Origin: an uncultured Chloroflexia bacterium
Lineage (GTDB): Bacteria > Chloroflexota > Limnocylindria > Limnocylindrales > CSP1-4
DNA: 64,000 bases
Assembly (NCBI GenBank): GCA_963712745.1
Contig: CAVQJC010000004.1
Coordinates: 233,791 to 297,790, forward strand
Direction: 5' to 3'
Shown here: one piece after another, positions 3,462 to 64,000 of the stretch
Layout of the letters: the number at the start of each line of letters is the position of its first letter
Position numbering within the stretch: the first letter of the stretch is position 1
The notes under the pieces: model-generated
Told to the model about the DNA's origin: nothing
Database searches by the model: none
What the model saw: only the letters and a program-made list of their open reading frames with translations
Program-made: the position numbers and the translations under genes

Positions 3462-3481
3462 GCGACGCGGCGAGCGCCGGC

Positions 3482-3814: not shown

Positions 3815-3836
3815 CACTCGGCCCCCACGGGGGCGG

Positions 3837-8042: not shown

Positions 8043-8267
8043 GAGGCCCAGACCGTATCGGTCGCCGAGCCGCCTGTGGGCCTTCGCTCAGGAATCTTCA
8101 CCCAAGCCTGTCTTCGGACAGGCGGGCCCAAGCTGCTTTCCTCCGGCGGACACTGCGTTGACGCCACCCCTGCCATCAGTGACCGGTGGCTGGCTCGGAT
8201 GCCTACGGGACCGAGGGCGCCGAGAGCGACGGGGGCGTCGACGACTGACCGAGGTGCGCGACTCGAT

Positions 8268-8328
8268 GCCCGCGGGAGCGAGGCTCCCGCGGGCTTGACT
8301 TTGTGCTGCCTGCCGCGTTCGCTACACT
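8268..8328 (+). promoter_or_regulatory. Perfect 12-bp hairpin followed by sigma70-type promoter for alaS
   Basis: gcccgcgggagc-gag-gctcccgcgggc at 8268-8294; TTGTGC-N16-TACACT at 8301-8328. Confidence 0.5.
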
Positions 8329-8374
8329 CGCGGTGATGCCAGAACAACACGACCGGGCCGCCCCGGAGGCCCGG

Positions 8375-11103: not shown

Positions 11104-11116
11104 GGGCGGCCAGAGC

Positions 11117-12382
11117 ATGTCCCTCGTGCGACGCCTGTTCCGAAGGGCACCTGCCGGTTCCGCCAGCGACGCCCATCTCGCGCTCGATATCGGCACCGAG
11201 TACGCCAAGGCCCTGCTCTTCGAGCACGACGACGGCGACGGCACCGTGGTCACCGGCGTCGGCCGTCAGCGACAGGGCCTGTCCCACATGCAGTCGGGCA
11301 CGGTGGCCGACATCCCCGCGGTGGTGAAGAACTGCCGGGCCGCGCTCGACGAGGCCGAGGAGATGTCCGGGCGTGCCGCGGATAAGGTCGTCATCGGCAT
11401 CGCCGGCGAGCTGGTCAAGGGCTTCACCACCACCCGCAGCGTCGAGCGCAAGCGACCGGACAGCTCGGTCACCCACTCGGAGCTGGAACGGCTGCTGGAG
11501 GAGATCGAGTCCGACGCCTCGGCCGAGGCCCAGCGGACGATCACCTGGGAGACGGGCCTGCCCAACGTCGACGTGCGGCTGGTGCATGCCAGCGTGGCCT
11601 CGGCCGGCATCGACGGCTACGCGGTCTCCAACCCGGTCGGCTTCCAGGGCCGCCACCTTCGCATCTCGGTCTTCAACGCCTACGCACCGCTGGTTCACCT
11701 GGGCGCGCTCGAATCGGTCGTGGAGCAGCTCGGCCTTGAGCTCATCAAGGTCGTGGCCGAGCCGTACGCGGTGGCCCGATCGATCTCCGGCGAGCAGGTC
11801 GGTCAGTCGGGCGCACTCTTCATCGACGTCGGGGGCGGTACCACCGACGTCGCACTCGTGCGCTCGGGCTCGGTCGAGGGCACTCGCATGTTCGCCCTCG
11901 GTGGCCGCGCCTTCACCAAGTCGCTGGCAGATCGTCTCGACGTGGGCTTCGAGGCGGCGGAGGCGGTCAAGATCGCCCATGCCGCAGGCAAGGACGTGGA
12001 AGACGCCGACGAGGTGGCCACCATCATCAGCGAGGACATCGCGGTCTGGGCTGCGGGCGTCGAACTCGTGCTCGAGGAGTTCGGGCAGGCGGGTCTGCTG
12101 CCCGGTCGCATCGAGCTCTGCGGGGGCGGGGCGGCGCTGCCGGAGATCCGGGCCGCGCTCGAGGACGAGCGGTTCGGCCGCGGCCTGCCCTTCGCGCGGC
12201 GCCCGCTGGTGTCGATGATGGATCCCGACTCGGTCAGCGAGATCACCGACGGGACCGGGCTGCTCGTCGACCAGCAGGACGTGACACCGATGGCCCTGGC
12301 CTACCAGGCAGTGGAGGCGGCCAAGCCCCAGGAGCCGCTCGATGCCGCCCTCACCCGCGTGCTCAAGGGGATGCGCGTCTAG
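11117..12382 (+). CDS. FtsA-like actin-fold ATPase (not adjacent to ftsZ)
   Basis: LALDIGTEYAKAL, VAEPYAVA, FIDVGGGTTDVA, GGRAFT and LCGGGAALP actin/Hsp70 motifs. Confidence 0.85.
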   Translation: MSLVRRLFRRAPAGSASDAHLALDIGTEYAKALLFEHDDGDGTVVTGVGRQRQGLSHMQSGTVADIPAVVKNCRAALDEAEEMSGRAADKVVIGIAGELVKGFTTTRSVERKRPDSSVTHSELERLLEEIESDASAEAQRTITWETGLPNVDVRLVHASVASAGIDGYAVSNPVGFQGRHLRISVFNAYAPLVHLGALESVVEQLGLELIKVVAEPYAVARSISGEQVGQSGALFIDVGGGTTDVALVRSGSVEGTRMFALGGRAFTKSLADRLDVGFEAAEAVKIAHAAGKDVEDADEVATIISEDIAVWAAGVELVLEEFGQAGLLPGRIELCGGGAALPEIRAALEDERFGRGLPFARRPLVSMMDPDSVSEITDGTGLLVDQQDVTPMALAYQAVEAAKPQEPLDAALTRVLKGMRV

Positions 12383-20911: not shown

Positions 20912-21747
20912 AGCGCATCGGCTTCGCCTTCAATCCCACCTCGGAGATGGCCGTCGAGCTGCGAGAGCGGGCCCTCCGCTGGTGCTCGGACCACGGCCTC
21001 GACGCCTGGGCGCTGCCCTCCGACGAGGCGCCTTCGGATCGCGAGGTGCTGGCCACCACGGACGCCATCGTCGTGCTCGGCGGCGACGGCACCTTCCTGC
21101 GAGCAGCCCAGACCGTGGCCGACGTCGACGTGCCCATCCTCGGCGTCAACGTGGGCAAGGTCGGCTTCCTATCCAAGGCAGAGCACCACGCCCTCGAGGG
21201 TGTGCTCGGACAGCTCAAGGACGACGACTACGAGCTGGAGCCGCGCCTGATGCTCGACGTCGGCGTGGTACCGGTCGATGGCCAGCGGGACGGACAGCTT
21301 CACGTCGCGCTCAACGAAGCAGCCGTCGTGCGCGGTCGCCACGCCCAGGTCATGCGTGTGGTCGTCGATGTCGGTGACTCCCGGGTGGCGACCTACATCT
21401 GCGATGGTGTGGTGGTGGCCTCGCCGACCGGCTCGACAGGCTACAGCTTCAGCGCGGGCGGACCCATCATCGAGCCCACCAGCCGAAGCCTCGTAGTCAC
21501 CCCGATCGCGGCCTACCTGACCCCGTTACGCTCGAGCGTAGTCGGGCCCCAGCACGTGGTGAAGGCCACGGTCGAGGCGGCCTACGACTGCCTGGTGAGC
21601 ATCGATGGGCGCCTGGACGTGGCCCTCGCGGTGGGGGACCGCGTGGAGGTGCGCGCCCGCGACAGGTCGATCGACTTCATCCAGCCGAGAGGGGCGCTGC
21701 CCTTCTGGGACCTGCTGCGCCACAAGGCCACGCTGCTGCCGGATTGA
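20908..21747 (+). CDS. nadK: NAD kinase
   Basis: LGGDGTFL, ALNE and DGVVVASPTGSTGYSFSAGGP. Confidence 0.96.
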   Translation: MKRIGFAFNPTSEMAVELRERALRWCSDHGLDAWALPSDEAPSDREVLATTDAIVVLGGDGTFLRAAQTVADVDVPILGVNVGKVGFLSKAEHHALEGVLGQLKDDDYELEPRLMLDVGVVPVDGQRDGQLHVALNEAAVVRGRHAQVMRVVVDVGDSRVATYICDGVVVASPTGSTGYSFSAGGPIIEPTSRSLVVTPIAAYLTPLRSSVVGPQHVVKATVEAAYDCLVSIDGRLDVALAVGDRVEVRARDRSIDFIQPRGALPFWDLLRHKATLLPD

Positions 21748-21749
21748 CG

Positions 21750-22742
21750 ATGATGGGCGGCCCCTCCGACGCCCGCAGCGGCGGCGGCAACAGCGAGAAC
21801 CAGCGCGGTGCACCACGCGACCTGGTCGCCGCCATCGAGGCCTATGCCGACTACCTGCGGGTAGAGCGCGGCCTGGCCGCGGCAACCATCCGCGCCTACG
21901 ACACCGACCTGCGGCTGTTCGGCCGCGACGCGCCGGGAGTGGGGCGCTGGGCAGCCTCGCCCGAGCCGGCCCGCGACTACCTCGGGGCCATGACCCGTCC
22001 GCCACGCCTGCTGCGGCCGACCAGCCTGCGGCGCAAGGCCGCCTCGATCCGGGCCTTCTACCGCTTCTGCTACGCCGAGGAGCTCATCGACGCCGACATC
22101 GCCGCGCTCATCGACCTGCCGCGCCAGATGCAGCGCCTGCCCGACACGCTCGATACGCAGGAGGTGGGGGCGTTGCTCGATGCGACCTCCGGCGACGACC
22201 TCGTGAGCCTGCGCGACCGCGCGCTGCTGGAGCTGCTCTACGCGGCCGGCTTGCGCATCAGCGAGGCCTTGCGCCTCGACCGGCAGGACCTGTCCTTGCG
22301 CGGCGGCTTCGTACGCGTCATCGGCAAAGGTGACAAGGAGCGGCTGGTGCCGGTGGGTGACCTGGCCGTGGCTGCGGTGGAGACCTACCTCGCCGAGCGG
22401 GACCGGCTACGCGAGCGTGAAGCCGCTGCCGGGGCGCCAACGATGGCCGAGTCCGAGGAGGGCCGGGAGCCGCTCTTCCTCTCGAAGCGGGGGCGACGCC
22501 TCGACCGCATGGCCGCCTGGCGCGTGATGCGAGCCGCCGCACTCCGCGCCGGGCTGCCCGGGCGTGTCACACCCCACACGTTGCGGCATAGTTTCGCTAC
22601 CCACCTGCTGGAAGGCGGAGCCGACCTGCGTGTGGTGCAGGAACTGCTCGGCCACGCCAGTATCACCACCACCCAGCTGTACACGCATATCACCGGAGAG
22701 CGGATCCGCCAGGTCTACGCCCGGGCCCACCCGCGCGCATGA
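21750..22742 (+). CDS. xerD: Tyrosine recombinase XerD
   Basis: RDRALLELLYAAGLRISE, GKGDKERLVP, TPHTLRHSFATHLLEGGADLR and LGHASITTTQLY; housekeeping context. Confidence 0.92.
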   Translation: MMGGPSDARSGGGNSENQRGAPRDLVAAIEAYADYLRVERGLAAATIRAYDTDLRLFGRDAPGVGRWAASPEPARDYLGAMTRPPRLLRPTSLRRKAASIRAFYRFCYAEELIDADIAALIDLPRQMQRLPDTLDTQEVGALLDATSGDDLVSLRDRALLELLYAAGLRISEALRLDRQDLSLRGGFVRVIGKGDKERLVPVGDLAVAAVETYLAERDRLREREAAAGAPTMAESEEGREPLFLSKRGRRLDRMAAWRVMRAAALRAGLPGRVTPHTLRHSFATHLLEGGADLRVVQELLGHASITTTQLYTHITGERIRQVYARAHPRA

Positions 22743-26344: not shown

Positions 26345-27120
26345 TGTCTGAACCGGTCCGCGTGCAGAAGGCCCTGGCCGATGCCGGGGTGGCCTCTCGC
26401 CGGGCCGCCGACGCGCTGGTCGCGGCTGGGCGCGTGACCGTCAATGGGCAGCCCGCCGTGACCGGCCAGCGCGTGGACCCGGCGGTCGACGCGCTCGCGG
26501 TCGATGGCCGCCCGGTGCTGCCCGCGGGCAAACGCACCTACCTCGTGATGCACAAGCCCGCCGGTGTCACCAGCACCGTCAGCGACCGCCACGCCGAGCA
26601 GACGGTGCTGGACCTGCTGCCCGCCGAGCTACGTGGTTCCGGCTCGAGGCTGTACCCGGTCGGCCGTCTCGACAAGGACTCCGAGGGGCTCATCCTGCTC
26701 ACCGACGACGGCGACTGGACGCAGCACCTGCTGCACCCGCGCTACGGCGTCGAGCGCGAATACGCGGTCGGGCTACGGGCCCCGCTCGATCCGGCCAGCG
26801 CCCAGGCGCTGACCTCGGGCATCGAGCTTGACGAGGGCCTGGCCACGCTGGTCGGCCTGCGTCGGTCCACGCGCGTCGAGGCTGCGCGCCTGGAGGACCG
26901 AGATGACCCACGCGGACCGCTGGCCTGGTATCGGGCCGTGATCACGCAGGGCTGGAAGCGTCAGTTGCGGCGGATGTTCGCGGCCGTCGGGACCCCGGTT
27001 GAGCGGCTGGTCCGGGTCCGGATCGGCACGCTCCGCCTCGATGACATGGCGCCGGGTGCGGTGCGCCCCCTGAGCAGTCCCGAGCGCGAGCGGCTGGCAG
27101 CGACCCGGAAGGGCCGGTGA
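26344..27120 (+). CDS. rluB: rRNA pseudouridine synthase (RluB/RsuA family)
   Basis: S4 domain, PVGRLDKDSEGLILLTDDG and QLRRMF. Confidence 0.9.
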
Positions 27121-27803
27121 GCGGCCCCCGCGTGGCCCTCGACGGCCCCGGCTCGAGCGGCAAGACGTCGGTCGGTGCCGCCGCGGCCGCGCGTCTCGGC
27201 TATCACTTCCTCGACACCGGCGTCGTCTACCGGGCCGTCACCCTCCTGAGCGTGATACGGGGCATCGATGCGGAGGACCAGGATGCACTCGTGGCGGTCG
27301 TACCCGACCTGTCCCTCGCGCCCGATGAGCAAGGCAACATGAGACTGGTCCTCATCGACGGCGAGGACGTGACCGCACGGCTCCACGTGCCGGAGGTCGA
27401 CCGGCGGGTCAGCGCCGTCTCGGCCCAGCCGAAGGTGAGAGCGGCCCTGCTCGAGCGGCAGCGCGAGGTCGCGGCACCGGGCTACGTCATCCTCGCCGGC
27501 CGGGACATCGGCACGGTGGTACTGCCGGACGCGGAGCTCAAGCTTTGGCTGGAGGTGTCGGCCGAGGAGCGCGCTCGTCGGCGTGCCGCCCAGCGGGGCC
27601 ATTCGCTCGAGTCGGAAGAGGGCCAGACCATCCTCGCCGACCTGCGCCGTCGCGACCATCTCGACAGCACCCGCGAGACCGCGCCGCTGCGCGTCGCTGA
27701 CGACGCTGTCATCGTCCACAGTGACGGGCGGGACTTCGATGACACCGTGAACGAGGTCGTCCGTGTCATCCGGGAACACACGCAACAGGGGACCAGCGCA
27801 TGA
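27117..27803 (+). CDS. cmk: Cytidylate kinase
   Basis: DGPGSSGKTS, LDTGVVYRA and GRDIGTVVLPDA. Confidence 0.95.
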   Translation: MSGPRVALDGPGSSGKTSVGAAAAARLGYHFLDTGVVYRAVTLLSVIRGIDAEDQDALVAVVPDLSLAPDEQGNMRLVLIDGEDVTARLHVPEVDRRVSAVSAQPKVRAALLERQREVAAPGYVILAGRDIGTVVLPDAELKLWLEVSAEERARRRAAQRGHSLESEEGQTILADLRRRDHLDSTRETAPLRVADDAVIVHSDGRDFDDTVNEVVRVIREHTQQGTSA

Positions 27804-28477
27804 GTGAATTCCAGGCCATGGGCGCCTATCCCACCTTCGTCGCAGGCCTCTGCCGTTTCGTGGCCCAGTCGATCGCCCGGGTGAAGGTCGAGGGGCTCGA
27901 CGGCCTGCCCCGGCAGGGACCGCTCATCCTTGCGGCCAACCACATGAGCAACGCCGATCCGCCCTTCATCGGCGGCTGGCTCGGCCCGGCGCTCGGCCGC
28001 CGGCCCACCTTCCTGGCCAAGGACTCGTTGTTCAAGGGCCCCCTGGGTCTGCTCATCCGTTCGCTGGGGGCGGAGCCGGTGAAGGCCGGCGGCAGCGACA
28101 TCGGCGCCTACCGCGCAGCCAAGTCCATCCTTGACAGGGGTGGCGTGGTGGCCATCCTGCCGGAGGGTACGCGCTCGTTCGATGGTGTCATGGGCGACCC
28201 CAAGCCAGGCGTCTCGCTGCTGGCCACGCGCACCGGCACGCCCGTGCTGCCCATCGGCATCAGCGGCACCGACGACCTCATCGCCCGGGAGCAACTGCTG
28301 CCCAATATCGGTAGCCGCGTCATCTTGCGCGCCGGGCCCCCGTTCACGCTCACCATCCCGCCGGGGGCGGACCGCAGGGCAGCGCTGGCCGACGCCGATG
28401 AGGAGCTCATGCGCCGCATCGCGGCGCTGGTCGAACCCCGCCACCGCGGCGAGTGGGAGCCCTGGCCGGAGGCCTGA
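27800..28477 (+). CDS. plsC: 1-acyl-sn-glycerol-3-phosphate acyltransferase
   Basis: NHMSNAD (NHX4D) and PEGTRS. Confidence 0.92.
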   Translation: MSEFQAMGAYPTFVAGLCRFVAQSIARVKVEGLDGLPRQGPLILAANHMSNADPPFIGGWLGPALGRRPTFLAKDSLFKGPLGLLIRSLGAEPVKAGGSDIGAYRAAKSILDRGGVVAILPEGTRSFDGVMGDPKPGVSLLATRTGTPVLPIGISGTDDLIAREQLLPNIGSRVILRAGPPFTLTIPPGADRRAALADADEELMRRIAALVEPRHRGEWEPWPEA

Positions 28478-28547
28478 CGACCGCGCTCGGGGTAGGCGAA
28501 CCTGGTTTCACGCCATCGTCAAGAAGCGATGCGATACTTGCCGTCCC

Positions 28548-29495
28548 ATGGGAACCGTCTCCGAAGTCCGCATCGCCCGCCGCACCGGCTTCTGCTATGG
28601 CGTGCGCGAGGCCATCGACGCGGCGCGCATCAGCGCCGCCGAGGGCAAGAAGACGCACACGCTCGGCCAGGTCGTCCACAACGAGGGTGTCATCAAGGGC
28701 TTGCGCGACCAGGGCATCGTCTCGGTCAAGGAGCTCGACGAGGTCGATGAAGGCGCGGCCGTCGTCATCCGCGCCCACGGCGTGACGCCGGAGGTCATGG
28801 CCCGTGCGGAGGAGAAGGGTCTCGACGTCATCGACGGCACCTGCAGCTGGGTGACCCAGGAGCAGAAGGAGCTGGCCAAGCTGGTCGAGGAGGGCTACAC
28901 CATCGTCCTGCTCGGGACGCCCAACCACCCCGAGGTCGTGGGCCTGCTGGGCTACGCGCCGGACGCCATCCTCGTCGACGAAGAGGAGGACTGGGACCAG
29001 ATCCCGAGGCGCAAGCGCATGGCCCTGCTCACGCAGTCGACGCAGCCGCCGTGGAAGTTCGAGCAGCTGGCCGGCTACCTGACCACCCGCGCGCACGAGC
29101 TCAAGATCGTCAACACCGTCTGCCCGGTCACCATCCGCCGCCAGCAGGACACCACCGACCTGGCAGAGGCGGTCGACCTCGTGGTCGTCGTTGGCGGCCG
29201 CAACAGCGCCAACACCAAGGAGCTCACGCGCCTCGTGGGCATCGTGGGCAAGCCCGCCGTCCAGGTCGAACGCGCCGCGGATCTCGGTGACCCAGCCGCC
29301 TTCGACGGTCACGTCATTGTGGGCGTGACCGGCGGCACCTCCACGCCCATCGAAGACCTCGAAGCGGTGGCGGCGCGCATCTATGAGCTCGCCGGCGTGC
29401 CCGAGAGGCAGGAGCGTGCTGTTCAGCTGGCCCACCAGGCCGTCACCGCGGTGGCCGAGTCGGCCTACCGCAGCTCGTCGCTGCCCGCCGCCTAG
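28548..29495 (+). CDS. ispH: 4-hydroxy-3-methylbut-2-enyl diphosphate reductase
   Basis: [34 protein letters not shown] and GTSTP. Confidence 0.95.
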
Positions 29496-29506
29496 CTCCG
29501 ACCGCC

Positions 29507-31096
29507 ATGCCGACCCGCCGCACACGCCGTCGCCCCCGCTCCATCGACCGGGACACGCCCGCCGCGGGCCTGCCCGTGGTGGCCGTCGTGGGCCGGCCCA
29601 ACGTGGGCAAGTCGACGCTCTTCAACCGCATCGTCGGGGAGCGCAAGGCCATCGTCGAGGACCGGGCCCGCACCACGCGCGACCGTCTCTACGGCGTAGC
29701 CGAGTGGAACGGTCGCCGATACGTCGTCATCGACACGGGCGGCATGGAGATCGACCCCGGTGACGCCATCGAGGAGCGCGTGCAGGATCAGGCCAGACTG
29801 GCCATCGAGGAAGCCGAAGTCATCGTCTTCGTGGTCGATGCCGCGGCCGGCCAGACGCCCGCCGACCAGGAGGTGGCGCAGACGCTGCGACGCGCCCAGG
29901 CACCGGTGATCATGGCCATCAACAAGGCCGACAACGAGAAGCTCGAGCTGCAAGGCCACGAGTTCCTGCGCCTGGGCTGGGAGGATTGGCACGCAGTCAG
30001 CGCGCTCCACGGACGCGGCACCGGCGACCTGCTCGACGCCATCGTCGAAGCGCTCCCGGAGGAGTCCTTCGATGAGCTCGAGCGCAAGCGCCGCGAAGAC
30101 GAGGCCGACGACCTGGCCGAGCGTATCGACGAAGGCATCCTGCCCGAGAGCGAGCAAGAGGCGGCGGCCGCGGACGACGGACTGAGCGGCGAGGCCTGGT
30201 TCGACGAGGAGATGCCGACCCCGCGCATCGCCATCGTGGGCCGGCCCAACGTGGGCAAGTCGTCGCTGCTCAACCAGCTGCTGGGCGAGGAGCGCGCCAT
30301 CGTGAGCGACATCCCCGGCACCACCCGCGACGCCATCGACACCATGCTCACCTGGCAGGACCGCGAGGTACGGCTCGTCGACACCGCCGGCCTGCGCCGT
30401 CGTGGCAAGGTCGCGTCAGGGCCCGCGGCCGAACGCTACTCGGCGCTGCGGGCACTCAAGGCCATCGGCCGCGCCGACGTCTGCGTGCTCGTGCTCGACG
30501 CGCAGGACGGGCTGGCCGCTCAGGACGCCCACGTCGCCGGCTACGTCGTGGACGAGGGCGTGGGACTGGTCCTGGCCATCAACAAGTGGGACCTGGTGGA
30601 GAAGGACGACAAGACGTTCGAGGAGTACGTCGCCCGTGTCCGCAGGCAGGCCCCGTTCCTCCACTTCGCACCGGTGGTGGCCATCAGCGCGCTTACCGGC
30701 CAGCGGGCCGGGCGTGTGCTCGACGAGGCGCTGCTGATCGCCGCCGAGCGCCGCCGGCGCATCCCCACCGCACGCCTGAACAAGGTGCTCTCCGAGGCCG
30801 TCTCACGCCACCAGCCCCCAGCCGTCAAGGGCCGCCGGCCGCGTTTCTACTACGCCACCCAGGCCACCATCGAGCCGCCCACGTTCGTGCTTTTCGCAGC
30901 GGATGCGAAGTCCGTGCACTTCAGCTACCAACGCTTCCTCGAGAACCGCATCCGCGACGCCTTCGACTTCGAAGGCACGCCGCTGCGCCTCATCTTCCGC
31001 GAGCGCTCGAAGGTGCAGCTCGAGCCCAAGAAGCGCAAGCCGCGAGCGAAGCCGGGCAAGACACCGACCAAGAAGTCCCGACGCAAGGGCTCCTGA
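29507..31096 (+). CDS. der: Ribosome biogenesis GTPase Der/EngA
   Basis: Two GRPNVGKS P-loops, DTGG/DTAG, NKAD/NKWD and a KH-like C-terminus. Confidence 0.97.
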
Positions 31097-34014: not shown

Positions 34015-34091
34015 CGGGGCGTGGCGCAGCCTGGTAGCGCACTTGACTGGGGGTCAAGAGGTCGCTGGTTCAAATCCAGTCGCCCCGACCA
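34015..34091 (+). tRNA. tRNA-Pro (anticodon GGG)
   Basis: Cloverleaf: cggggcg/cgccccg acceptor stem, cttga-ct-GGG-gg-tcaag anticodon arm, GGTTCAAATCC T-loop, encoded CCA. Confidence 0.97.
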
Positions 34092-53774: not shown

Positions 53775-53850
53775 GCCCCCGTAGCTCAGTGGATAGAGCG
53801 GCAGCGTCCTAAGCTGCGCGTCGGCGGTTCGAATCCGTCCGGGGGCGCCA
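53775..53850 (+). tRNA. tRNA-Arg (anticodon CCT)
   Basis: gcccccg/cgggggc acceptor stem, TAGCTCAGTGGATAGAGC D-arm, gcagc-gt-CCT-aa-gctgc anticodon arm, GGTTCGAATCC, CCA. Confidence 0.95.
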
Positions 53851-56823: not shown

Positions 56824-57440
56824 CCGCCCTCACTGCAGAGTCAACGCTCCCGACTCCGCCGACCGCCGGAGCGGGAGCGTAGCCATGCCATCGGGTGGCG
56901 TATCGCCCGCTTTCCGGTGGCTGCGGCGAGGGCGAACTTCGCCTTGAGTGGTGACGTCGACAGTCCGGGCGGCGACGGGATGATCCTCGGCTGCCTGCTG
57001 CTGGCGGCGCCACTCCGGCCGCCCACGATGTCCTTGTGGCTGTGGTACGTGCTCAAGCGGCACGGGAACGCCACGAGTCGAGAATGGTGACGAGCGTCCT
57101 GTGCGTCGATGCCGCTACAGGTACGCGGCGAGCTTCTCCTCGGGTTTGGCAGCTAGCGCCCCGCGCCCGTCCGGGGGCGCCAGGCCAACCTGGTCTTCTT
57201 CGCCGTGTGCTGGCTCCACGAGCCGCAGCCGAGTAGGTGGGTCTTTCTCGGTCATCGCTCTGTGGCTAGGTTCGATGTTCGGCATGCAGGCCCCGATGGT
57301 ACGCTCGCCCTGACGCCCCAGTCGGCGTCTCCCATCCAGAGCGGACGAGGGACTCGGCCCCGTGACTCCGCAGCAACCAGTCGGCTCCCTCAGCCGACAC
57401 GGTGCTCCCGCCGAGTGCGATGGTCGAAGGAGGACCACTC

Positions 57441-58057: not shown

Positions 58058-58607
58058 ATGGATGCGGTGACACGAACGGCAGACCGGGGGCGGGCTGGCT
58101 TGCTGGCGGCTGCCGCTGCCGGTGACGAGCTCGCCTTCCGCCGCATCATCGTCGATCACCACGACGACATGCGCCGCGTGGCCGCCTACGTCGCAGGTGA
58201 CCACGCCATCGCGGACGAGGCCACGCAGGCCGCGTGGCTGATCGCCTGGAAGAAGATCGGCAGCGTCCGCGACGAGGCTTCCCTGCGCCCGTGGCTCGTG
58301 TCGGTCGCGGCCAACGAGGCCAAGCGCGTCCTGCGAACAGCAACGTCGGCGGGCCGCGTTCGAGGGCGCGGCTGCGGCAGGGGTCGAGTCGAGCGGCGTC
58401 GATCCCGCGACGGGTGTCGATGCGATGGACCTGTACGCGGCGATGGCACGGCTCGATCCCGACGACCGTGCCCTCCTCGCCATGCGCTACGTCGCGGGCT
58501 TCGACTCGAACGAGCTGGCGAAGGCCACCGGCATCAGCGCGTCGGGCACCCGCAGCCGCATCGAGCGGGCACTGAAGCGGCTCAGGAAGGATCTCAGCGA
58601 TGGATGA
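58058..58607 (+). CDS. ECF sigma-70 factor C, paralog of sigma A (frameshift around 58340-58380)
   Basis: GDELAFRRI...AWKKIGSVRDEASLRPWL; second frame LDPDDRALLAMRY...GTRSRIERA. Confidence 0.88.
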
Positions 58608-59982
58608 CATGAACGCCTTCGAGCGCCAGGTCGTGGGCCAGATCCGCCGCTTCGCGGGTCCGTCGCGTCCGGTCGATGACGCCGCGATCTTCACCGCCAT
58701 CACCGCCACCCGGTCCCCCAAGTGGAGGTTCAGGTCCATGTTCAGCGCGACCAAGTTCGTCGTCGCGGGTGCCATCGTGGCGCTGTTCGGCGGCTTCCTG
58801 CTGGCGGGGGTCCTGACACAGCCGAGCGAAGATCGGGTGCCGGCAGCCGGCGCGGCAACCCCTGCATCGATATCGTCTGTCGACCCGACCCGTGCGCTGG
58901 ATCGATACCTGGACATGCGTGCGCGTCTGACCACCAAGAATCGCTCCCGGGGTCCAGGCGGTCATCAACGACGGCGCGGGCCACGAGCTGACCGTCTCTC
59001 GGCGACGACGGACTCGGCGGGAGTATCACCGTCGCCCCCGACGGGTCGGTCTGGCTGCTGGGCCAGGAGCGCTTCGTCGAGCTCGGACGACCTGGGACGT
59101 GTCCGGGAGCCCCTTCAAGGGACGCCGGCTACGACCTCGCCTTCGCCCCGGACGGCACGCCGTGGGCCCTCTCGGGGGACCGGGTCCACCGTTTCTCTGA
59201 CAGCGACTGGCTCAGGGTCAGTCGCGGACTGAGGCCGCTGGAAGAGCTCGAGGTCGGCGATCTTGCGCTCGAGGTCCTGTCGGACGGCTCGGTCTGGACC
59301 AGGGACCAGGAGGAGCTGGCCCGACTGGACGGCGACACCTGGACGACGTTCCGCTTCGCTGACACGGCGAATCCCGCTGCCCAGCGAGGACCTGTGGGTC
59401 TTCCCGGTCGACCTCGCCTCCACCCCCGACGGCAGCCTGTGGGTCGCGTTCAGTACGTGGGAGCGGAACAGTCCGCTGCGGGGTGGGTTGGCACGCTTCG
59501 ACGGATCGTCCTGGAAACTTGTCGAGCCGCTGGGAGAGGGTCATCGGCACATGCCGATGTCGCTCGCGAGCGGCAAGGACGGGAGCTTGTGGGCGGCCCT
59601 GTACGGCTGTGAAGGTGAGGGCTGCGAGGAGGACACGAGCCGCTGGCACCCGTTCCTCGCTCGTCTGGACGAGGATGGATGGACCGTGCTGGGTGAAGCG
59701 GACGGCGTGGCCCCGGTCGGAAAGCCCGGTTGGTGGGTCGGACAGATGGCCATCACTGCCGACGGTCGCCTGCTCGCAGACGTCGATGATGGAGACTTCG
59801 GCTCCGTCTGGAGGCCGAGTCACCTCGCCATCTTCGACCTCGACGGGCGAGAGGCGACCCTGCCCAACCTCGATGGGAGAGACGGCGTGGCATCCATGGC
59901 GGGCGCCCCGGACGGCACGTTCTGGGTGCTCGACGGGAGCCTCTTCATCATCGATTCCGAGGCCGTGGCGGGCATCGAGTAG
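58600..59982 (+). CDS. Putative anti-sigma factor C with extracytoplasmic beta-propeller (several frameshifts)
   Basis: Overlaps the sigma stop; RSMFSAT plus TM; repeated (A/T)PDGxxW blades in pieces up to 59982. Confidence 0.68.
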
Positions 59983-60033
59983 GATCGCGGCAGCCGCCAA
60001 CCCGGCCACCATCCGTCCACTGCCCGACACCCT

Positions 60034-60056
60034 CCACGCTCAGCGCCGTGAGCCAG
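60034..60056 (+). repeat. Repeat block R1, copy 1 (short core only)
   Basis: ccacgctcagcgccgtgagccag, 1 mismatch to copies 3 and 4. Confidence 0.75.
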
Positions 60057-60240
60057 GTGCATGTCGGTCGAGGGTCGCGGCAGGCTCGCCCTGAGTCGCT
60101 CCGAGCCGATGACGACCCCGGCTCATCGCGGCCCGGTCGCGGCTAGACAGCCCTGATAGCCTGACGGCTTGCGCCGGTCTGACGGGCAGCGGAGGGCTGC
60201 TCCGCCCCCGGACGCAACACGGGGGGCAGGGAGGATGCCC

Positions 60241-60762
60241 GTGCGGGCCATCAAGACCACCACCATCTCCATCCTTGCGCTCGGCCTGCTGGCCGGCTCG
60301 GCGGTCGGGGCCGCGGCACAGGATGCCGATGCCGATGGCACCGAGCGTCTGGTCGGGCGAGCTCGTGCCCGGCGGGGGCGAACAGATCTTCCCGTGGAGG
60401 AGACGCCCGCGTAAGATGAAGTGGTCGGTCGAGACACCGGCCGGATCGATGCGACCGACCAGCGCATCAGCGGTGACTGGGAGCAAGTGCTCGCGTTCCG
60501 TGTGTTCGATCCTGAAGGAGATCGGGCGATCGTTCGACCCGGCGACGATCCGAGTCAGAGAATGACGCTGGGTCATGGAGCGGCACCTACGAGCGGCTGG
60601 GCCGGCGGTCCGTCCAACGAGGGGATGAACGTGCTCACGGGCGAAGGCGACTACGAGGGCCTCACGGCTGTCTTCAGCCGGACGGGCGAGGGCGCTCTGG
60701 AGGGCCTGATCGTGCCTGGAGTCGCGCCGGCCGCGCCGGAGGCAGGACCCGCCGCCGAGTAA
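60241..60762 (+). CDS. Secreted protein with DxR...GxGxYEGL domain (frameshifted)
   Basis: GGGAGG RBS, signal RAIKTTTISILALGLLAGSAVGAAAQ; ATDQRISG and LTGEGDYEGLTA. Confidence 0.65.
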
Positions 60763-60827
60763 CCCCATCCCGCCACCTCGGCTGCCTGCGGTGGTCGCGG
60801 CCCTGCTTGGTACCTCGCCGGCCAGGG

Positions 60828-61199
60828 CCACGCCCATCGCCGCGAACCAGCTCCACCTTACCCATAGACACCGACTCGCTGGACGCCTGCCCGCGTTGGA
60901 CCTGAGCGGACACCATGACGGTGTGCTGGAACAGCGCCCTTGGACCCTGAGGACAGCCGCCTCGGACCCTGAGAACAGCGCCGCCAGCCCACGCGCATCC
61001 ACCACCCTCGAAGGCTTCTGTGGCTTGTCGCGAGGAGGAGAATGGTCAGAGCGGGAGGCGATGAGGCACGGCCCACACCCTGGCCGCCTGGACCGCGCCG
61101 AGCCACTGGCGAACCCGGCCCGCGCATGAGAAGGGGGTTGACCATGCGTACGTTGCGGCTGTCCCTGGTCGGGACGGTCATCGTGGCGCTGCTCGGCGG
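60828..61199 (+). repeat. Composite repeat unit: degenerate R1 (60828-60914), R2 (60967-61035), R3 (61048-61125), RBS and conserved leader
   Basis: Blocks align with 61711-62078 and 62999-63245. Confidence 0.88.
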
Positions 61200-61690
61200 G
61201 CTGGGTGGCGCGGTGCTGGGACAGGAAGAGGAGGACGCGCCCGTATGGGTGACCCTCCTCTCGCAGGAGAACTGCCCGGATGGAGGCGGACCCCGGCACC
61301 TACGAGCCAGGCGCGGGACTCGCCAAGAAGTACGCGAGATCTGCCCCTCGCCTGTGACAACACCTACAGCGATGCTCGCCTCGATGGAACGAGTCACATG
61401 CTCTACAACGAGGACTGCTTCGAGTCGGGCATCTGCGTCGGCTGGGGGACCAATCAGATCGACGGCTCCGATGGATCGTGGAGCGGGTGGTGGCACGAGA
61501 TCGATGACGACGAGACGGACGGGGAGGACAACACGAGCTTCCACATCGTGCTGACCGGCGACGGCGGCTACGAGGGACTCACCGCCATCATCTACTCGCT
61601 CGGCGTCTGGGAGGCGTTCCCAACGAGTACGGAGTCATCTACCGGGGCGATCCGCCGCCAGGCCCGGACGTGCTGTTGGCTGCCGAGTAG
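61144..61690 (+). CDS. Secreted protein, MRTLRLSL leader plus DxR...GxGxYEGL domain (frameshifted)
   Basis: Leader MRTLRLSLVGTVIVALLGGLGGAVLGQ; YSDARLDG, GSWSG and LTGDGGYEGLTA. Confidence 0.68.
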
Positions 61691-61710
61691 CAGTCCGCCA
61701 CGCGACCGCG

Positions 61711-62078
61711 CCACGCTCAGCGCCGCGAGCCAGATCCATGCAGGGATGGACACCGACACGACCGTCATCTGCCCCTGCTCGAGCTGAGCCACCGACATCG
61801 CGTCCACGGCGATGCCTTGAGAGCGCCGTCTGCACCAAGGACAGCACTGACCGATGCCGCGATCAGCACGCCGCGTCGGTGACCTCCGCCGCTTGAACCG
61901 AGTGCTAACTCTGTGGCCTCATACCGGGTAGAGCGGGAGGCGATGAGGCGCGGCCCACACCCTGGCCGCCTGGACCGCGCCGAGCCACTGGCGAACCCGT
62001 CCCGCGCCTGGAGGGGGATGTCATGCGTACGTTGCGACTGTCCCTGGCAGGGACGGTCATCTTGGCGCTGCTCGGCGG
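61711..62078 (+). repeat. Composite repeat unit: R1 (61711-61820), R3 (61930-62007), RBS and conserved leader
   Basis: R3 is 76/78 identical to 61048-61125; leader DNA is 52/56 identical to 61144-61199; R1 closely matches 62999-63110. Confidence 0.9.
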
Positions 62079-62932
62079 CCTCAGTGGAGCCGTCATTGGC
62101 GCAGGACGACACTTGGCCCAAGCACGAGCTGTACGTCGTCTACGGGGACGACGACCCGGTATCGGCAGTACATGCACATCTACAAGCCGGAACCCCGCGA
62201 GGATCCGCGCCCCGCGCTCATCTTCTTCCACGGCGGCGGCCTGGAGGTCGGCGTCACGCCCGACGACGCGATGCTCGTTCGGGGAAGATCGCCGCCGGCG
62301 GCGGGCTGGGCGAGCCGTACGTCACGTTCCTCGCTGGCTATCGGCTGCTCGACCAGGCCACCGGGCGAGGTCCGCTGGCCGGCCCAGCTCCACGATGCCC
62401 AGCGTGTCGTGCGCTGGGTGCGTGCCCACGCCGACGAGTACAACGTCGACCCGGATCGCATCTGCTCCATCGGCGACTCATCGGGCGGCCACCTCGCCGC
62501 CATGCTCGGCGTGATCGGACACCGTCGACGACTCCGATCCCGAGCTGGCCGGCATCTCCAGCCGGGTGGACTGCGCCATCGCCATCGCCGGCGTCTACGA
62601 CATGACCATCCCGCTCGTTCGACCCCGACGAGTGGTACGAGGCCATCCCGATGGCCGAGATCGAGGCCGACCCGACCATCGCGCTCGAGGCCTCGCCCGT
62701 CTTCCACGTCGATGAGGACACCGTGCCGATGCTCGTCCTCCACGGCAACCGGGACACCGTCGTGCCCATCGAGCAGTCGCGCAACCTCGCCGACGCGCTC
62801 GGAGCCGCCGGCATCGAGTTCGCCTACGCCGAGCTGCCGACCGGACACGGTGCCGCAGAGTACTTCCAGGAGCAGGGGACCTTCGAGCTCATCGAGGCGT
62901 TCCTCAACTACCAGGTGCACCCGGAGCAGTAG
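62023..62932 (+). CDS. Secreted alpha/beta hydrolase (HSL-like esterase) with MRTLRLSL leader (frameshifted)
   Basis: LIFFHGGG, GDSSGGHLA, HGNRDTVVP and TGH. Confidence 0.8.
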
Positions 62933-62998
62933 TCGGTCCTGCCGCTCAGGTCTTCGGCAGTCGCGCAGCGGCACACCAGGCCAGAACCCGACCACCCG

Positions 62999-63245
62999 CC
63001 ACGCTCAGCGCCGCGAGCCAGACCTATGCAGGGATAGACACCGCCACGACGGTCGTCTGCCCCTGCTCGAGTTGAGCCACACCGACATCGGCGCCATGGC
63101 GGTGCCCTGAGGACTGCGCCGCCAGCCCACGCGAATCGACCACCCTCGAAGGCTTCTGTGGCTTGTCGCGAGGGGGAAGATCTGGGTACGAGCGGGGAGG
63201 CGACGACGCGCGGCCCACCACCATGGCCGCCTGGACCGCGCCGAG
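62999..63245 (+). repeat. Composite repeat unit R1+R2+partial R3, truncated by IS110
   Basis: 35-bp accaccctcgaaggcttctgtggcttgtcgcgagg is identical to 61001-61035; similarity ends abruptly after gaccgcgccgag. Confidence 0.9.
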
Positions 63246-63875
63246 TAGCCCTGAAGGTCAACCCCTGGTCACGCCGCGGGTCGAGCGTCACCCGCTGCAG
63301 GGCACCGTGGCGGGCCGGGTCTAGAGGGACGCGGTCCTGCCAGCAACGCCAGATGACGTAGACCCTGATGCCCGGGGGCGAGCACGCGCACGGCATGGGG
63401 GTGGCTCTTGCCGCGCGCACGTGCCCAGGCGGTACACCTCCTCGGCCCAGGGGTTCGCACGACGGCTGTCCTGCGCGAAGTCGACGAGCGCCTCGCGCAG
63501 CTTCTTGTCGCACGTCCAGCGGAACGACACCACCCGGTGCTGGCCCGAGGCACGGGTGGACGGGGTCACGCCGGCCAGGCAGGCGAGCGATGCGGGCGTG
63601 GGGAACCGCTCGCGACGGTCGCCGATCTCGGCGAGCAGCGCCGCGGCGCGCACCCGACCGGCCCGCGGCAGGCCGGTGAAGATGGCGCGGTCGGGGTCGC
63701 GCCCAGCTGCTCGGCGATGCGCGTCTCGAGCGCCTGGCCTGCTCGTCGATGGCGCGGCCACGGCGGCGAGCGAGGGCGAGGGTCACGGCCGCGAGCGCGT
63801 CGGCGTTCGGCCCGCTCACCCCGGGCGGGGCGGCTGCGAGCCGGGCGTGGAGCTCGGCGCCGCTGGAGCCGACAG
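63246..63875 (-). mobile_element. IS110-family transposase, C-terminal fragment (frameshifted)
   Basis: FTGLPRAGRVRAAALLAEIGD..RFPTPASLACLAGVTPSTRASG...CDKKLR, HPHAVRVLA and IWRCWQD; the N-terminal DEDD domain is not seen. Confidence 0.85.
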
Positions 63876-64000
63876 GTCGTGAGTCAGATCCATCACTTCG
63901 TTGGTCCCGTCGCCCGGTCGATAGTGCGGTCTTCGACGCCGTCATCACCGCGAGCCGATCGCAGAGATGGGGGTTCACGATGTCCTCCGCAGTCAAGTTC

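What the first reader, a model, noticed from the sequence alone, without database searches (positions are those of the whole stretch)
60034..63245. Cassette-like array: conserved multi-block intergenic repeat and shared leader in front of interchangeable secreted cargo
Seen: after each of four consecutive genes (stops at 59982, 60762, 61690 and 62932) the same element R1 (ccacgctcagcgccgcgagccag...) starts 20-70 bp downstream, at 60034, 60828, 61711 and 62999. Block R2 includes an identical 35-mer with cctcg/cgagg arms (61001 and 63139). Block R3 is 76/78 identical (61048 and 61930; partial at about 63190). Then come an RBS and a 56-bp leader that is 52/56 identical (MRTLRLSLxGTVIxALLGG), after which the proteins are unrelated (novel beta domain versus alpha/beta hydrolase). 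Conserved non-coding DNA and leader around non-homologous cargo is the reverse of ordinary tandem duplication. Inference: a system that captures or swaps mature domains behind a standard expression and export module, either integron-like with R1 as recombination site or by homologous recombination between repeats. It is not CRISPR and I see no canonical attC ends.
Basis: partly seen in the sequence, partly recalled or inferred. Interest (0 to 1): 0.85.

Follow-up and report, generated by a model that had tools for sequence, protein, structure and literature searches.

The report
Riboswitch-gated secreted-protein gene array
The repeated "intergenic cassette" is mainly a known type of RNA switch (a variant cyclic-di-GMP riboswitch) followed by a shared export signal, copied in front of dozens of different genes in this bacterium, rather than a gene-capture machine.

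Summary
The repeats are real and far beyond chance. Block R3 is not a recombination site. It is the aptamer of the Rfam family c-di-GMP-II-GCG (RF03170): 62.3 and 63.7 bits against a cut-off of 47.9, plus a third, truncated copy. This genome holds 48 matches at E<=0.01, 32 of them over the cut-off. That is the most among the 41 genomes scored. A ribosome-binding site and ATG follow the aptamer within about 12 nt. The "leader" is a Sec-type signal peptide. A DNA profile of it finds 21 copies, and 19 sit directly behind an aptamer. The cargo is diverse: esterase, a beta-barrel family without Pfam, a weak Cupin_2 match (below Pfam's cut-off), BNR, a sugar-binding protein, methyltransferases and others. 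R1 occurs in only 8 strong and 5 weak places and R2 comes in two variants, so neither is a universal site. No integron integrase lies near the arrays. The only recombinase at the array is an IS110-family remnant that cuts the third aptamer. The same junction occurs at two further places. Block mosaicism points to ordinary homologous recombination among paralogous 5' regions. This is a known element in an unusually large regulon.

The parts
58058..58612 (+). ECF-type sigma factor gene (frame-shifted in this assembly)
   Evidence: NCBIfam sigma-70/ECF models match the N-terminal piece below their curated cut-offs (TIGR02937 29.0 bits against 42.9). ORFs, frame change.
58600..59982 (+). Anti-sigma-like membrane protein with a propeller-repeat C-terminus (frame-shifted). 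Its stop at 59982 precedes the first R1.
   Evidence: ORFs. Weak Reg_prop/DUF7133 matches. The N-terminal 250 nt recur next to riboswitch arrays in relatives and at C8:16090.
60034..60063 (+). R1, first copy. Only the first ~40 nt are like the others, and no riboswitch follows.
   Evidence: The nhmmer hit is weak (E 2e-4).
60235..60762 (+). Gene 1: secreted protein with its own signal peptide (MPVRAIKTTTISILALGLLAGSAVGAAAQD). It is a paralogue of gene 2 and is frame-shifted.
   Evidence: (D13). A short-read contig of a relative lacks single bases at 60539, 60557 and 60591.
60824..60946 (+). R1, second copy (divergent)
   Evidence: nhmmer E 4e-22. 73% identity to the reference. It does not fold like the others.
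60967..61039 (+). R2 variant a, ending in a GAGAAT box a few nt before the aptamer. It is a possible promoter region (inferred).
   Evidence: The sigma-70 consensus scan found no promoter.
61046..61129 (+). R3 = c-di-GMP-II-GCG riboswitch aptamer, copy 1
   Evidence: RF03170 62.3 bits against a gathering score of 47.9. Canonical RF01786 gives only 41.5 bits.
61130..61146 (+). Shine-Dalgarno (GAAGGGGG) and ATG of gene 2
61144..61690 (+). Gene 2: MRTLRLSL... signal peptide plus a beta-barrel domain without Pfam. It is frame-shifted. An intact 243-aa orthologue exists in G053.
61702..61827 (+). R1, third copy. It folds as an imperfect long hairpin.
   Evidence: nhmmer E 2e-31. Fold -29.9 kcal/mol, z -1.48.
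61880..61926 (+). R2 variant b (..CTTGAACC..CTGTGGCCTCATACC..). It differs from variant a.
   Evidence: Alignment. The same variant occurs at C2_108374, C17_173582 and C20_4101.
61927..62011 (+). R3 = c-di-GMP-II-GCG riboswitch aptamer, copy 2
   Evidence: RF03170 63.7 bits. RF01786 gives 40.3 bits.
62010..62025 (+). Shine-Dalgarno (GGAGGGGGA) and ATG of the esterase gene
62023..62932 (+). Gene 3: secreted alpha/beta hydrolase (esterase) with the same signal peptide. It is frame-shifted.
   Evidence: The intact relative in G021 matches BD-FAE (1e-37) and Abhydrolase_3. Orthologues at 80-86% in G021, G056 and G048.
62987..63118 (+). R1, fourth copy
   Evidence: nhmmer E 5e-35. Fold z -2.76.
63105..63177 (+). 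R2 variant a, second copy
   Evidence: 93% identical to 60967-61039.
63187..63245 (+). R3, third copy: only the 5' two thirds of the aptamer, cut after ..GGACCGCGCCGAG
   Evidence: RF03170 29.1 bits, E 0.028. Junction shown.
63246..63860 (-). Remnant of an IS110-family insertion sequence: the end of the element plus the C-terminal part of its transposase
   Evidence: PF02371 Transposase_20, 3.8e-19. Relatives match query bases 1-616. The same junction occurs at C10:~41100 and in G050.
63830..64000 (+). Start of a second anti-sigma-like gene, a paralogue of 58600-58850. It runs off the contig end.
   Evidence: Reading. Window 63870-64000 hits the same places in relatives as 58605-58830.

Best explanation
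The array is a run of separately regulated genes for exported proteins. Each has the same kind of 5' region. After the stop of the previous gene comes R1, a block that can fold into an imperfect long hairpin. It may act as a terminator or insulator (inferred). Next comes R2, which exists in two variants and ends in a -10-like box just before the aptamer. It may be the promoter (inferred).

Then comes R3, the aptamer of a c-di-GMP-II-GCG variant riboswitch (shown). A Shine-Dalgarno sequence lies 6-10 nt behind its closing stem and an ATG about 12 nt behind it (shown). The aptamer therefore most likely gates translation. When the ligand locks stem P1, the C-rich 3' strand can no longer mask the G-rich ribosome-binding site (inferred, weakly supported). 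The ligand is presumably a cyclic dinucleotide or a relative. It is not known to me for this variant.

The first ~27 codons encode a Sec-type signal peptide (MRTLRLSLxGTVIxxLLGGLxGAVxAQ-D/E), which sends the product out of the cytoplasm. This aptamer-SD-signal-peptide module has been multiplied in this genus. It sits in front of several unrelated mature proteins. The copies are kept alike, and their blocks are reshuffled, by ordinary homologous recombination or gene conversion between paralogous 5' regions (inferred from mosaic blocks). The third unit is dead: an IS110-family element inserted into its aptamer.
For: Riboswitch identity:
- R3 is RF03170: 63.7 and 62.3 bits against a cut-off of 47.9.
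- The canonical c-di-GMP-II model scores lower. None of its 41 matches in the genome reaches its cut-off.
- In 43 distinct own-genome copies, stems P2 and P3 and the pseudoknot are kept. P3 shows two-sided changes, for example GC 30 / AT 8 at pair 27-49 and CG 32 / TA 8 at pair 29-47.

Scale:
- There are 48 matches at E<=0.01 in this genome, 32 over the cut-off.
- 23 of 24 genus relatives have 1-31 copies.
- Outside the genus, 29 of 150 phylum genomes have 1-8.

Module:
- SD plus ATG follow directly behind most copies.
- The leader DNA profile gives 21 hits, 19 of them directly behind an aptamer.
- The leader is also the consensus N-terminus of the gene-2 family in metagenomes.
- Leader-bearing cargo includes a BD-FAE esterase, a beta-barrel family without Pfam, BNR, a weak Cupin_2 match and a weak DUF4886 match (both below Pfam's cut-offs). 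Other aptamer copies precede a sugar-binding protein, rhodanese, methyltransferases, GNAT, META, Fer4, SRPBCC and a GTPase.

Context:
- The genome has 8 GGDEF proteins.
- The intergenic blocks show no codon periodicity.
- Mosaicism: unit 4 has R1 of unit 3 (92%) and R2 of unit 2 (93%).
- The esterase aptamer is 93% like its neighbour's but 70% and 77% like those of its cargo orthologues.
- The IS junction is shown.
Against:
- The thermodynamic model of the switch is weak. Mean probability that the SD is unpaired is 0.61 with P1 enforced, 0.475 with P1 blocked and 0.49 unconstrained (28 copies, no pseudoknot term).
- No sigma-70-type promoter was found in 59900-63400, so the promoter role of R2 is a guess.
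- The R1 hairpin is only modestly better than shuffles (z -1.5 to -2.8 in 4 of 6 copies; the two divergent copies gave +0.3 and +0.6). It has no real covariation: the alifold covariation term is +1.34.
- The aptamer-identity argument for gene conversion is soft. The esterase aptamer is of the common consensus type (89% to an aptamer in G053), and leader identities do not differ: 84% to the neighbour against 81% to the G021 orthologue.
- Entropy by codon position in the leader does not separate peptide-level from RNA-level constraint (0.51, 0.53 and 0.71).
- All three genes of this array are frame-shifted, while many paralogues elsewhere are intact. This particular array may be decaying, or badly assembled near the contig end.
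Confidence: 0.78

Rival explanations
1. Integron-like or other site-specific cassette system. R1 (or another block) is a recombination site at which a dedicated recombinase inserts, excises or swaps mature-domain cassettes behind a fixed expression and export module.
For: Sharp repeat boundaries sit shortly after each stop codon. Unrelated cargo lies behind the same module. R1 can fold into a hairpin. Gene order is not collinear in any of the 48 genus relatives searched.
Against: R3 is a riboswitch. R1 occurs at only 8 strong and 5 weak sites, against 48 aptamer matches. The genome has 4 tyrosine and 1 serine recombinase matches, none beside an array, and the one in the window is XerD-like. 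Each gene carries its own aptamer, SD and signal peptide, unlike promoterless cassettes. Cargo orthologues in other species keep their own module. IntegronFinder itself could not be run.
Confidence: 0.04
2. The R1-R2-R3-leader unit is, or was, a small non-autonomous mobile element (MITE-like, or moved by the IS110-family element). It carries a promoter, a riboswitch and a signal sequence into new places.
For: The unit has many dispersed copies on 11 contigs. An IS110-family element is joined to the aptamer at one and the same position in three places. Two such elements in different aptamers could recombine and exchange what lies downstream (inference).
Against: No terminal inverted repeats or target duplications flank the unit. 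The upstream blocks fall into at least three unrelated classes, A, B and C, so only the aptamer plus leader is common. The IS interrupts aptamers rather than flanking intact units. Other IS110 copies in the genome are not in aptamers.
Confidence: 0.08
3. The order and the frame shifts of this array are assembly artefacts. Repeated modules near a contig end were collapsed or mis-joined in a long-read metagenome assembly.
For: The window ends at the contig end. Contig C8 starts inside an aptamer. There are several frame shifts per gene here. A relative's short-read contig lacks single bases at 60539, 60557 and 60591. Near-identical duplicates exist on different contigs, and contamination is 5%.
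Against: The pair gene 2 - R1 - R2b - R3 - esterase recurs as a diverged paralogous copy (75%) at C17:172722-174577. The modules themselves occur in 23 of 24 genus relatives. An artefact could change the order but not the nature of the elements.
Confidence: 0.1

Closest known systems
c-di-GMP-II-GCG riboswitch candidates (Rfam RF03170), variants of the c-di-GMP-II (GEMM-II) riboswitch RF01786
   Same: Scores are above the gathering threshold. The P1-P2-P3 fold and the pseudoknot are kept, with covariation in P3. The element sits in a 5' UTR directly before an SD and start codon.
   Different: Copy number is 48 matches in a 4.2-Mb genome, against 1-8 in the phylum genomes outside the genus that have any. 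The copies are arranged in tandem arrays. 19 copies are linked to one conserved signal peptide. As far as I recall, the ligand of the GCG variant is not established. The paper that defined it (PMC5358364) is not held.
Large c-di-GMP-I riboswitch regulons of some Geobacter and Clostridium species (recalled, not checked in a paper here)
   Same: One second-messenger riboswitch class is multiplied in front of many unrelated genes, many of them for surface or exported proteins.
   Different: The aptamer class is different. Here part of the coding region (the signal peptide) travels with the aptamer.
Multigene families with a conserved 5' UTR plus signal peptide and divergent mature parts, such as the variable surface lipoprotein genes of Mycoplasma (recalled)
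   Same: Non-coding DNA and signal sequence are conserved in front of divergent or unrelated mature proteins. Recombination occurs between copies.
   Different: There is no sign of phase or antigenic variation, of a single expression site, or of a site-specific invertase. The conserved 5' element is a riboswitch.
Integron gene cassettes
   Same: Tandem short genes are separated by repeats that can fold.
   Different: There is no IntI-type integrase at the arrays. R1 is not universal. Every gene has its own regulatory leader.
IS110/IS1111-family elements that insert into one fixed sequence, such as REP elements or integron attC sites (recalled)
   Same: The remnant has a Transposase_20 domain. 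It inserts at one exact position of a repeated sequence without terminal inverted repeats.
   Different: The repeated target is a riboswitch aptamer. I found no paper describing this (search; passages of one preprint).

Membership tests
c-di-GMP-II-GCG riboswitch (Rfam RF03170) | Covariance-model score at or above the curated gathering score | tested here: met
   63.7 and 62.3 bits against 47.9 for 61927-62011 and 61046-61129. The truncated third copy scores 29.1 bits.
c-di-GMP-II-GCG riboswitch (Rfam RF03170) | Better fit to the variant than to the canonical c-di-GMP-II model | tested here: met
   RF01786 gives 41.5 and 40.3 bits for the same places. None of its 41 matches in the genome is over its cut-off of 53.5.
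c-di-GMP-II-GCG riboswitch (Rfam RF03170) | Conserved stems and pseudoknot maintained through compensatory change | tested here: met
   43 distinct own-genome copies were compared. The P1 core is paired in 40-43 of 43, P2 in 41-43 and the pseudoknot in 41-42. P3 pairs 24-52, 27-49 and 29-47 show GC/AT or CG/TA alternation. The outer six pairs of the model's P1 are not kept.
c-di-GMP-II-GCG riboswitch (Rfam RF03170) | Cis position: 5' of a gene on the same strand, with an expression platform | tested here: met
   SD and start codon follow within about 12-18 nt in most of the 48 copies. The switching model is only weakly supported.
c-di-GMP-II-GCG riboswitch (Rfam RF03170) | Specific ligand binding that changes gene expression | not testable with these tools
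   This needs in-line probing or ITC and reporter assays. The genome does encode 8 GGDEF domains.
Integron | IntI-type tyrosine recombinase next to the array | tested here: not met
   PF00589 has 4 matches in the genome, none at an array. The one in the window (21744-22739) passes the generic tyrosine-recombinase model NF001399, with XerD (313.2 bits against 329.6) as its best specific model; integron-integrase models are far below cut-off.
Integron | attC-type imperfect palindromes at every cassette boundary | tested here: inconclusive
   R1 can form an imperfect hairpin in 4 of 6 copies. It occurs at only 8 strong and 5 weak sites and shows no covariation. IntegronFinder was not available.
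Integron | Promoterless cassettes read from one common promoter | tested here: not met
   Each gene has its own aptamer, SD and conserved upstream block. That these blocks hold promoters is inferred.
MITE / small mobile element | Terminal inverted repeats and target-site duplications around the unit | tested here: not met
   None of the 14 inverted-repeat pairs found in 59000-64000 brackets a unit.
IS110-family insertion sequence (the flanking remnant) | DEDD (RuvC-like) N-domain plus Transposase_20 C-domain | tested here: inconclusive
   Only the Transposase_20 part is present in the window (PF02371, 3.8e-19). The element is truncated at about 63860. A full 1.48-kb copy exists in G050.
IS110-family insertion sequence (the flanking remnant) | Insertion at one defined target sequence | tested here: met
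   The junction ..CCGAG|T(A)GCCCT.. sits at the same aptamer position in the window, at C10:~41100 and in G050, with different flanks. In G050 the other aptamer half follows the other IS end. Three junctions only.
Sec-type (signal peptidase I) signal peptide | Basic n-region, hydrophobic h-region, A-x-A cleavage motif | tested here: met
   This is by inspection only: MRTLR / LSLVGTVIVALLGGLGG / AVLA-QDEE in 18 copies listed and in the family consensus. No signal-peptide predictor was available. There is no twin-arginine motif.

The most novel reading that the evidence does not exclude
In this genus a riboswitch aptamer, its ribosome-binding site and a signal peptide behave as one portable "sense-and-export" module. 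The module has been recombined onto at least five unrelated protein families. Its copies are homogenised by gene conversion. It is multiplied to about 50 copies per genome, so a whole secretome is placed under one (still unidentified) nucleotide signal. A bridge-RNA-guided IS110 element has in turn specialised on the aptamer as its landing site, and it may help to reshuffle what lies downstream.
Probability: 0.3. Interest if true: 0.7.

Novelty: new member of a known kind. Interest (0 to 1): 0.45.

Why it matters
The striking repeat is explained by a curated RNA family, so the cassette-capture idea can be set aside. Three things remain of interest.

1. This genus carries the largest regulon of the c-di-GMP-II-GCG variant among the genomes I searched. 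Its gene list is rich (exported esterase, beta-barrel proteins, a binding protein, methyltransferases, SRPBCC and others). That list could help to identify the ligand and the physiology this variant controls.

2. The tight linkage of an aptamer with one signal peptide across unrelated cargo shows how a regulatory element and an export signal can spread together.

3. An IS110-family element that lands at one position of a riboswitch aptamer would be a new kind of natural target for these RNA-guided recombinases.

Tried and rejected
Known RNA family for R1 or R2: the Rfam scan of 59900-63400 at E<=1 found only the three RF03170 matches.

Homology between R1 and the conserved block upstream of the class B copies: I suspected this by eye. 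The R1 profile did not hit any class B copy, so I dropped it.

R2 hairpin (cctcg/cgagg): there are only four copies. In C10_175348 the 5' arm changes without compensation. It has no support.

Sigma-70 promoter and intrinsic terminator scan: 0 promoters. The 1 terminator-like site lies on the minus strand inside gene 2 and is at chance level.

Cargo clustering by tblastx: the first run merged nearly everything through the next repeat unit. I repeated it with truncated cargo. The big cluster there is still partly held together by short matches, so cargo family counts are approximate.

Gene conversion test by identities: suggestive for the aptamer, not for the leader. I did not build a tree and ran no formal test.

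Codon-position entropy of the leader: not decisive.

Public runs:
- No run holds more than 0.11 of the sampled words.
- What was laid is mostly relatives piling up on the repeated modules. It gives no habitat, strain or expression claim and no transcript ends.
- One contig of an RNA library (X19) covers 61338-61574 with 1 difference. This does not prove transcription.
- Parts without cover mean nothing.

Structure of the gene-2 family: AlphaFold2 on 35 sequences gave mean pLDDT 85.5. Foldseek against the PDB gave no match at E<=0.001. The best match was FlgA at 2.1e-3 on the SAF part, followed by weak barrel matches.

Rfam on the G050 IS locus found nothing, so no bridge RNA was identified. 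A target-like string in the IS left end is only an eye observation.

Other IS110 copies of the genome were checked for aptamer halves: none of 6 places.

Literature:
- The term c-di-GMP-II-GCG occurs in 2 held papers, only in lists of Rfam models (passages seen).
- c-di-GMP-II-GAG occurs in 2 papers (listing only).
- The 224-RNA paper does not treat the variant (passages).
- c-di-GMP-II + riboswitch + Chloroflexi gave 0 papers.
- IS110 + riboswitch + target site gave 7 papers. I read passages of one preprint and found no such case.
Tables of the variant-riboswitch paper, and of surveys that list riboswitch counts per genome, may bear on the claims about copy number and ligand.

Full report
1. 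The observation

The 23-mer of R1 occurs four times in the 64-kb window with up to 3 mismatches (60034, 60828, 61711, 62999). All four are on the + strand. Chance expectation is 0.01. The four sites lie 52, 66, 21 and 67 nt behind the stops at 59982, 60762, 61690 and 62932.

R2 (60967-61039 against 63105-63177) is 93% identical. R3 (61048-61128 against 61930-62010) is 96% identical, and a third partial copy ends at 63245. The start of the two coding regions (61143-61214 against 62022-62093) is 88% identical. The 25-mer at the ATG occurs exactly twice. The intergenic stretches show no third-position G+C periodicity, so they are non-coding.

Some details need correcting:
- Genes 1 and 2 are paralogues. 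They share a ..VLTGxGxYEGLTA.. block (D13).
- Gene 1 has no R3 and a different signal peptide.
- The R1 copies at 60034 and 60828 are much weaker than the other two.
- The R2 before the esterase is a different sequence variant.
- All three genes are broken by several frame shifts.

2. What R3 is

A scan against Rfam identifies R3 as the aptamer of the c-di-GMP-II-GCG riboswitch family RF03170. The scores are 62.3 bits (61046-61129) and 63.7 bits (61927-62011), against a gathering score of 47.9. The third copy (63187-63259) reaches only 29.1 bits because its 3' third is missing. The canonical c-di-GMP-II model RF01786 gives 41.5 and 40.3 bits at the same places, and none of its 41 matches in the genome reaches its cut-off. 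So these are the variant.

I mapped the Rfam structure onto 43 distinct copies from this genome:
- The core of P1 (5 pairs) is paired in 40-43 of 43 copies, P2 in 41-43 and the four pseudoknot pairs in 41-42.
- P3 shows two-sided compensatory alternation, for example GC 30 / AT 8 and CG 32 / TA 8.
- The outer six pairs of the model's P1 are not kept.

3. The scale

The window's genome has 4.2 Mb in 20 contigs and is 84.5% complete. It contains 48 matches at E<=0.01, 32 of them above the cut-off. This is a lower bound, because only 150 of 4415 first-look candidates were scored. By their coordinates, most copies sit in clusters. Examples are seven within 12 kb on C7, six within 15 kb on C17 and four within 7 kb on C10. 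The three copies in this window lie at the end of C4.

In the genus, 23 of 24 relatives searched have the family, with 1 to 31 matches. None of 16 small genomes of a sister family has it. In a draw of 150 other genomes of the phylum, 29 have it, with 1 to 8 matches. That call scored at most 27 candidates per genome, and the count includes the unpublished G208.

Records of two relatives are titled uncultured Chloroflexia bacterium MAGs. The genome encodes 8 GGDEF domains, so c-di-GMP signalling is present.

4. What follows the aptamer

In most copies a G-rich Shine-Dalgarno sequence starts 6-10 nt after the 3' strand of P1, and an ATG or GTG follows about 12 nt after the aptamer. There is no room for a terminator, and none was found. 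Control of translation initiation is therefore the likely mode.

I modelled 28 copies. The mean probability that the SD is unpaired is 0.61 when P1 is enforced, 0.475 when its 5' strand is blocked and 0.49 unconstrained. This is a weak hint towards an ON switch, and the model has no pseudoknot term.

5. The leader

The shared 56-72 nt encode MRTLRLSLxGTVIxxLLGGLxGAVxAQ(D/E)E. By inspection this is a basic n-region, a hydrophobic core and an A-x-A site, which is a Sec-type signal peptide.

A DNA profile of the leader finds 21 copies in the genome, and 19 stand directly behind an aptamer. The same peptide is the consensus N-terminus of the gene-2 family in public metagenomes.

Leader-bearing cargo is not one family. 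It includes:
- the BD-FAE/Abhydrolase_3 esterase (three copies);
- the beta-barrel family of genes 1 and 2, which has no Pfam match; the G053 orthologue has a SAF domain at its end;
- a 283-293-aa group (the one scanned gave a weak Cupin_2 match below Pfam's cut-off);
- a BNR-repeat protein;
- a protein with a weak DUF4886 match (below Pfam's cut-off).

Other aptamer copies precede genes with other signal peptides or none. These encode a periplasmic sugar-binding protein, rhodanese, five or six class I methyltransferases, GNAT, a META domain, a 4Fe-4S protein, SRPBCC proteins and a dynamin-like GTPase.

Whether the leader is conserved as peptide or as RNA could not be decided. Entropy at codon positions 1, 2 and 3 is 0.51, 0.53 and 0.71 in the 13 closest copies.

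The AlphaFold2 model of the gene-2 family is confident (mean pLDDT 85.5) and mostly beta. It has no significant match in the PDB by Foldseek.

6. R1 and R2

These blocks are not part of the general module. A profile of R1 finds 8 strong and 5 weak places in the genome. The regions upstream of the 48 aptamers fall into at least three unrelated classes:
- class A carries R1 and R2 (eight copies);
- class B carries another conserved block (16 copies aligned);
- class C is found on contig C5.

Within class A, R2 has two variants. Variant a ends in GAGAAT 4-8 nt before the aptamer, and class B has GCGAGAGAATC in the same position. Variant b has CATACC there. I read this as a possible -10 region, but the consensus scan found no sigma-70 promoter.

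R1 can fold into an imperfect long hairpin (GCTCAG..CGAGC..AGGGATAGA / TCTGCCCCT..GCTCG..CTGAGC). Four of six copies folded somewhat better than shuffles (z -1.5 to -2.8), and the two divergent copies did not. The alignment shows no real covariation. A terminator or insulator hairpin behind the preceding gene is a reasonable but unproven reading.

ECF sigma and anti-sigma gene pairs flank the array (58058-59982, and another anti-sigma start at about 63830). A paralogous anti-sigma gene precedes R1 at C8:16090-17506. The anti-sigma N-terminus recurs next to riboswitch clusters in relatives. Whether these sigma factors drive the units is open.

7. Capture, swapping or plain duplication

No relative has the array in the same order. 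However, the esterase has orthologues at 80-86% identity in G021, G056 and G048. Gene 2 has orthologues at 81% in G051 and G053. In those that include the gene's 5' end (the esterase in G021 and G056, gene 2 in G051 and G053) homology starts at the aptamer, and each has its own aptamer and leader. The fusions of module and cargo are therefore older than these species.

A diverged copy of the pair gene 2 - R1 - R2b - R3 - esterase lies at C17:172722-174577 (75% identity).

Recombination between units is indicated by block mosaicism. Unit 4 combines the R1 of unit 3 (92%) with the R2 of unit 2 (93%), while units 2 and 3 differ in both.

The esterase aptamer is 93% identical to its neighbour's, but 70% and 77% identical to the aptamers of its cargo orthologues, whose coding regions are 82% and 80% identical. 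This fits gene conversion. The argument is soft, because the aptamer is of the common consensus type and the leader shows no such contrast (84% against 81%).

Nothing points to a dedicated recombinase. The genome has four tyrosine-recombinase matches and one resolvase match, none at an array. The one in the window (21744-22739) is XerD-like.

8. The end of the array

The third aptamer stops after ..GGACCGCGCCGAG at 63245. What follows (63246 to about 63860, minus strand) is the end and the C-terminal Transposase_20 part of an IS110-family element (PF02371, 3.8e-19). It is a remnant.

The same junction, at the same aptamer position but with a different aptamer and different upstream DNA, occurs at C10:~41100. 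It occurs again in relative G050. There a complete 1.48-kb element separates the two halves of an aptamer, and a second, 75%-identical element sits at another GAG inside the same aptamer. More distant elements (70-75% identical) in four other relatives end at ..TGAG in non-aptamer DNA. Six other IS110 places in this genome are not in aptamers.

Three junctions are few, but they suggest that this element uses the multicopy aptamer as its landing site.

9. Caveats

The window's three genes are frame-shifted, whereas many paralogues elsewhere in the genome are intact. Overlapping same-strand ORFs elsewhere in the window suggest further indels. The array lies at a contig end, and contig C8 begins inside an aptamer. 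A short-read contig of a relative lacks single bases at three places in gene 1. I cannot tell decay from assembly error.

Public runs gave no usable evidence on expression.

10. Verdict

The element is a member of a curated riboswitch family, in an unusually large and modular regulon, with an IS110 element that appears to target the aptamer as a by-product finding.

Noticed in passing
window 63246-63860; G000 C10:40873-41143; L020 (G050) 600-2160: An IS110-family element is joined to the riboswitch aptamer at the same position (..CCGAG|T(A)GCCCT..) in three places with different flanks. In G050 a full 1.48-kb copy splits one aptamer, and a second, related copy sits at another GAG of the same aptamer. 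The aptamer may be the element's preferred target.
   Followed up: partly
window 57329-57426: A SAM (S-box) riboswitch aptamer on the + strand: RF00162, 51 bits against a cut-off of 44.4.
   Followed up: no
window 34015-34088 and 53775-53847: Two tRNA genes on the + strand.
   Followed up: no
window 58058-59982 and 63830-64000; G000 C8:16090: ECF sigma and anti-sigma-like gene pairs flank the array. Paralogues of the anti-sigma N-terminus lie next to riboswitch clusters in this genome and in relatives. A regulatory link is possible.
   Followed up: partly
16 own-genome copies, e.g. G000 C17:164950-165052 and C7:68316-68420: A second conserved block of about 100 nt sits upstream of class B aptamers. 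It reads GCCATGGCGGCGACGACCAGA..CATGGCGATTC, then a variable hairpin, then GATGGACGCCCGCGAGAGAATC. It is unrelated to R1 and R2 by profile search. Its function is unknown.
   Followed up: partly
G000 C20:~2900-4185 vs C2:~107170-108458; C17:173582-174650 vs C7:67250-68315: Near-identical duplicates of riboswitch-plus-cargo units lie on different contigs (99% and 100% at protein level). They may be recent duplications, or redundancy or strain mixture in the assembly (contamination 5%).
   Followed up: no
G000 C8:1-130: Contig C8 begins inside an aptamer (CTGAGCCACTGGCG..), followed by the SD and the MRTLRLSL leader. The repeated modules break the assembly.
   Followed up: no
window 8249-12379, 27045-31093 and elsewhere: Consecutive same-strand ORFs overlap by 100-250 nt in different frames. 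This suggests single-base indels across the window, not only in the array.
   Followed up: no
control genomes of the genome search: Among the 14 named control genomes, both RF03170 and RF01786 ring only in Deinococcus radiodurans.
   Followed up: no
G000 C5:71079-71546: One of the 8 GGDEF genes lies about 5 kb from the riboswitch cluster on C5 at 76.8-112.6 kb.
   Followed up: no
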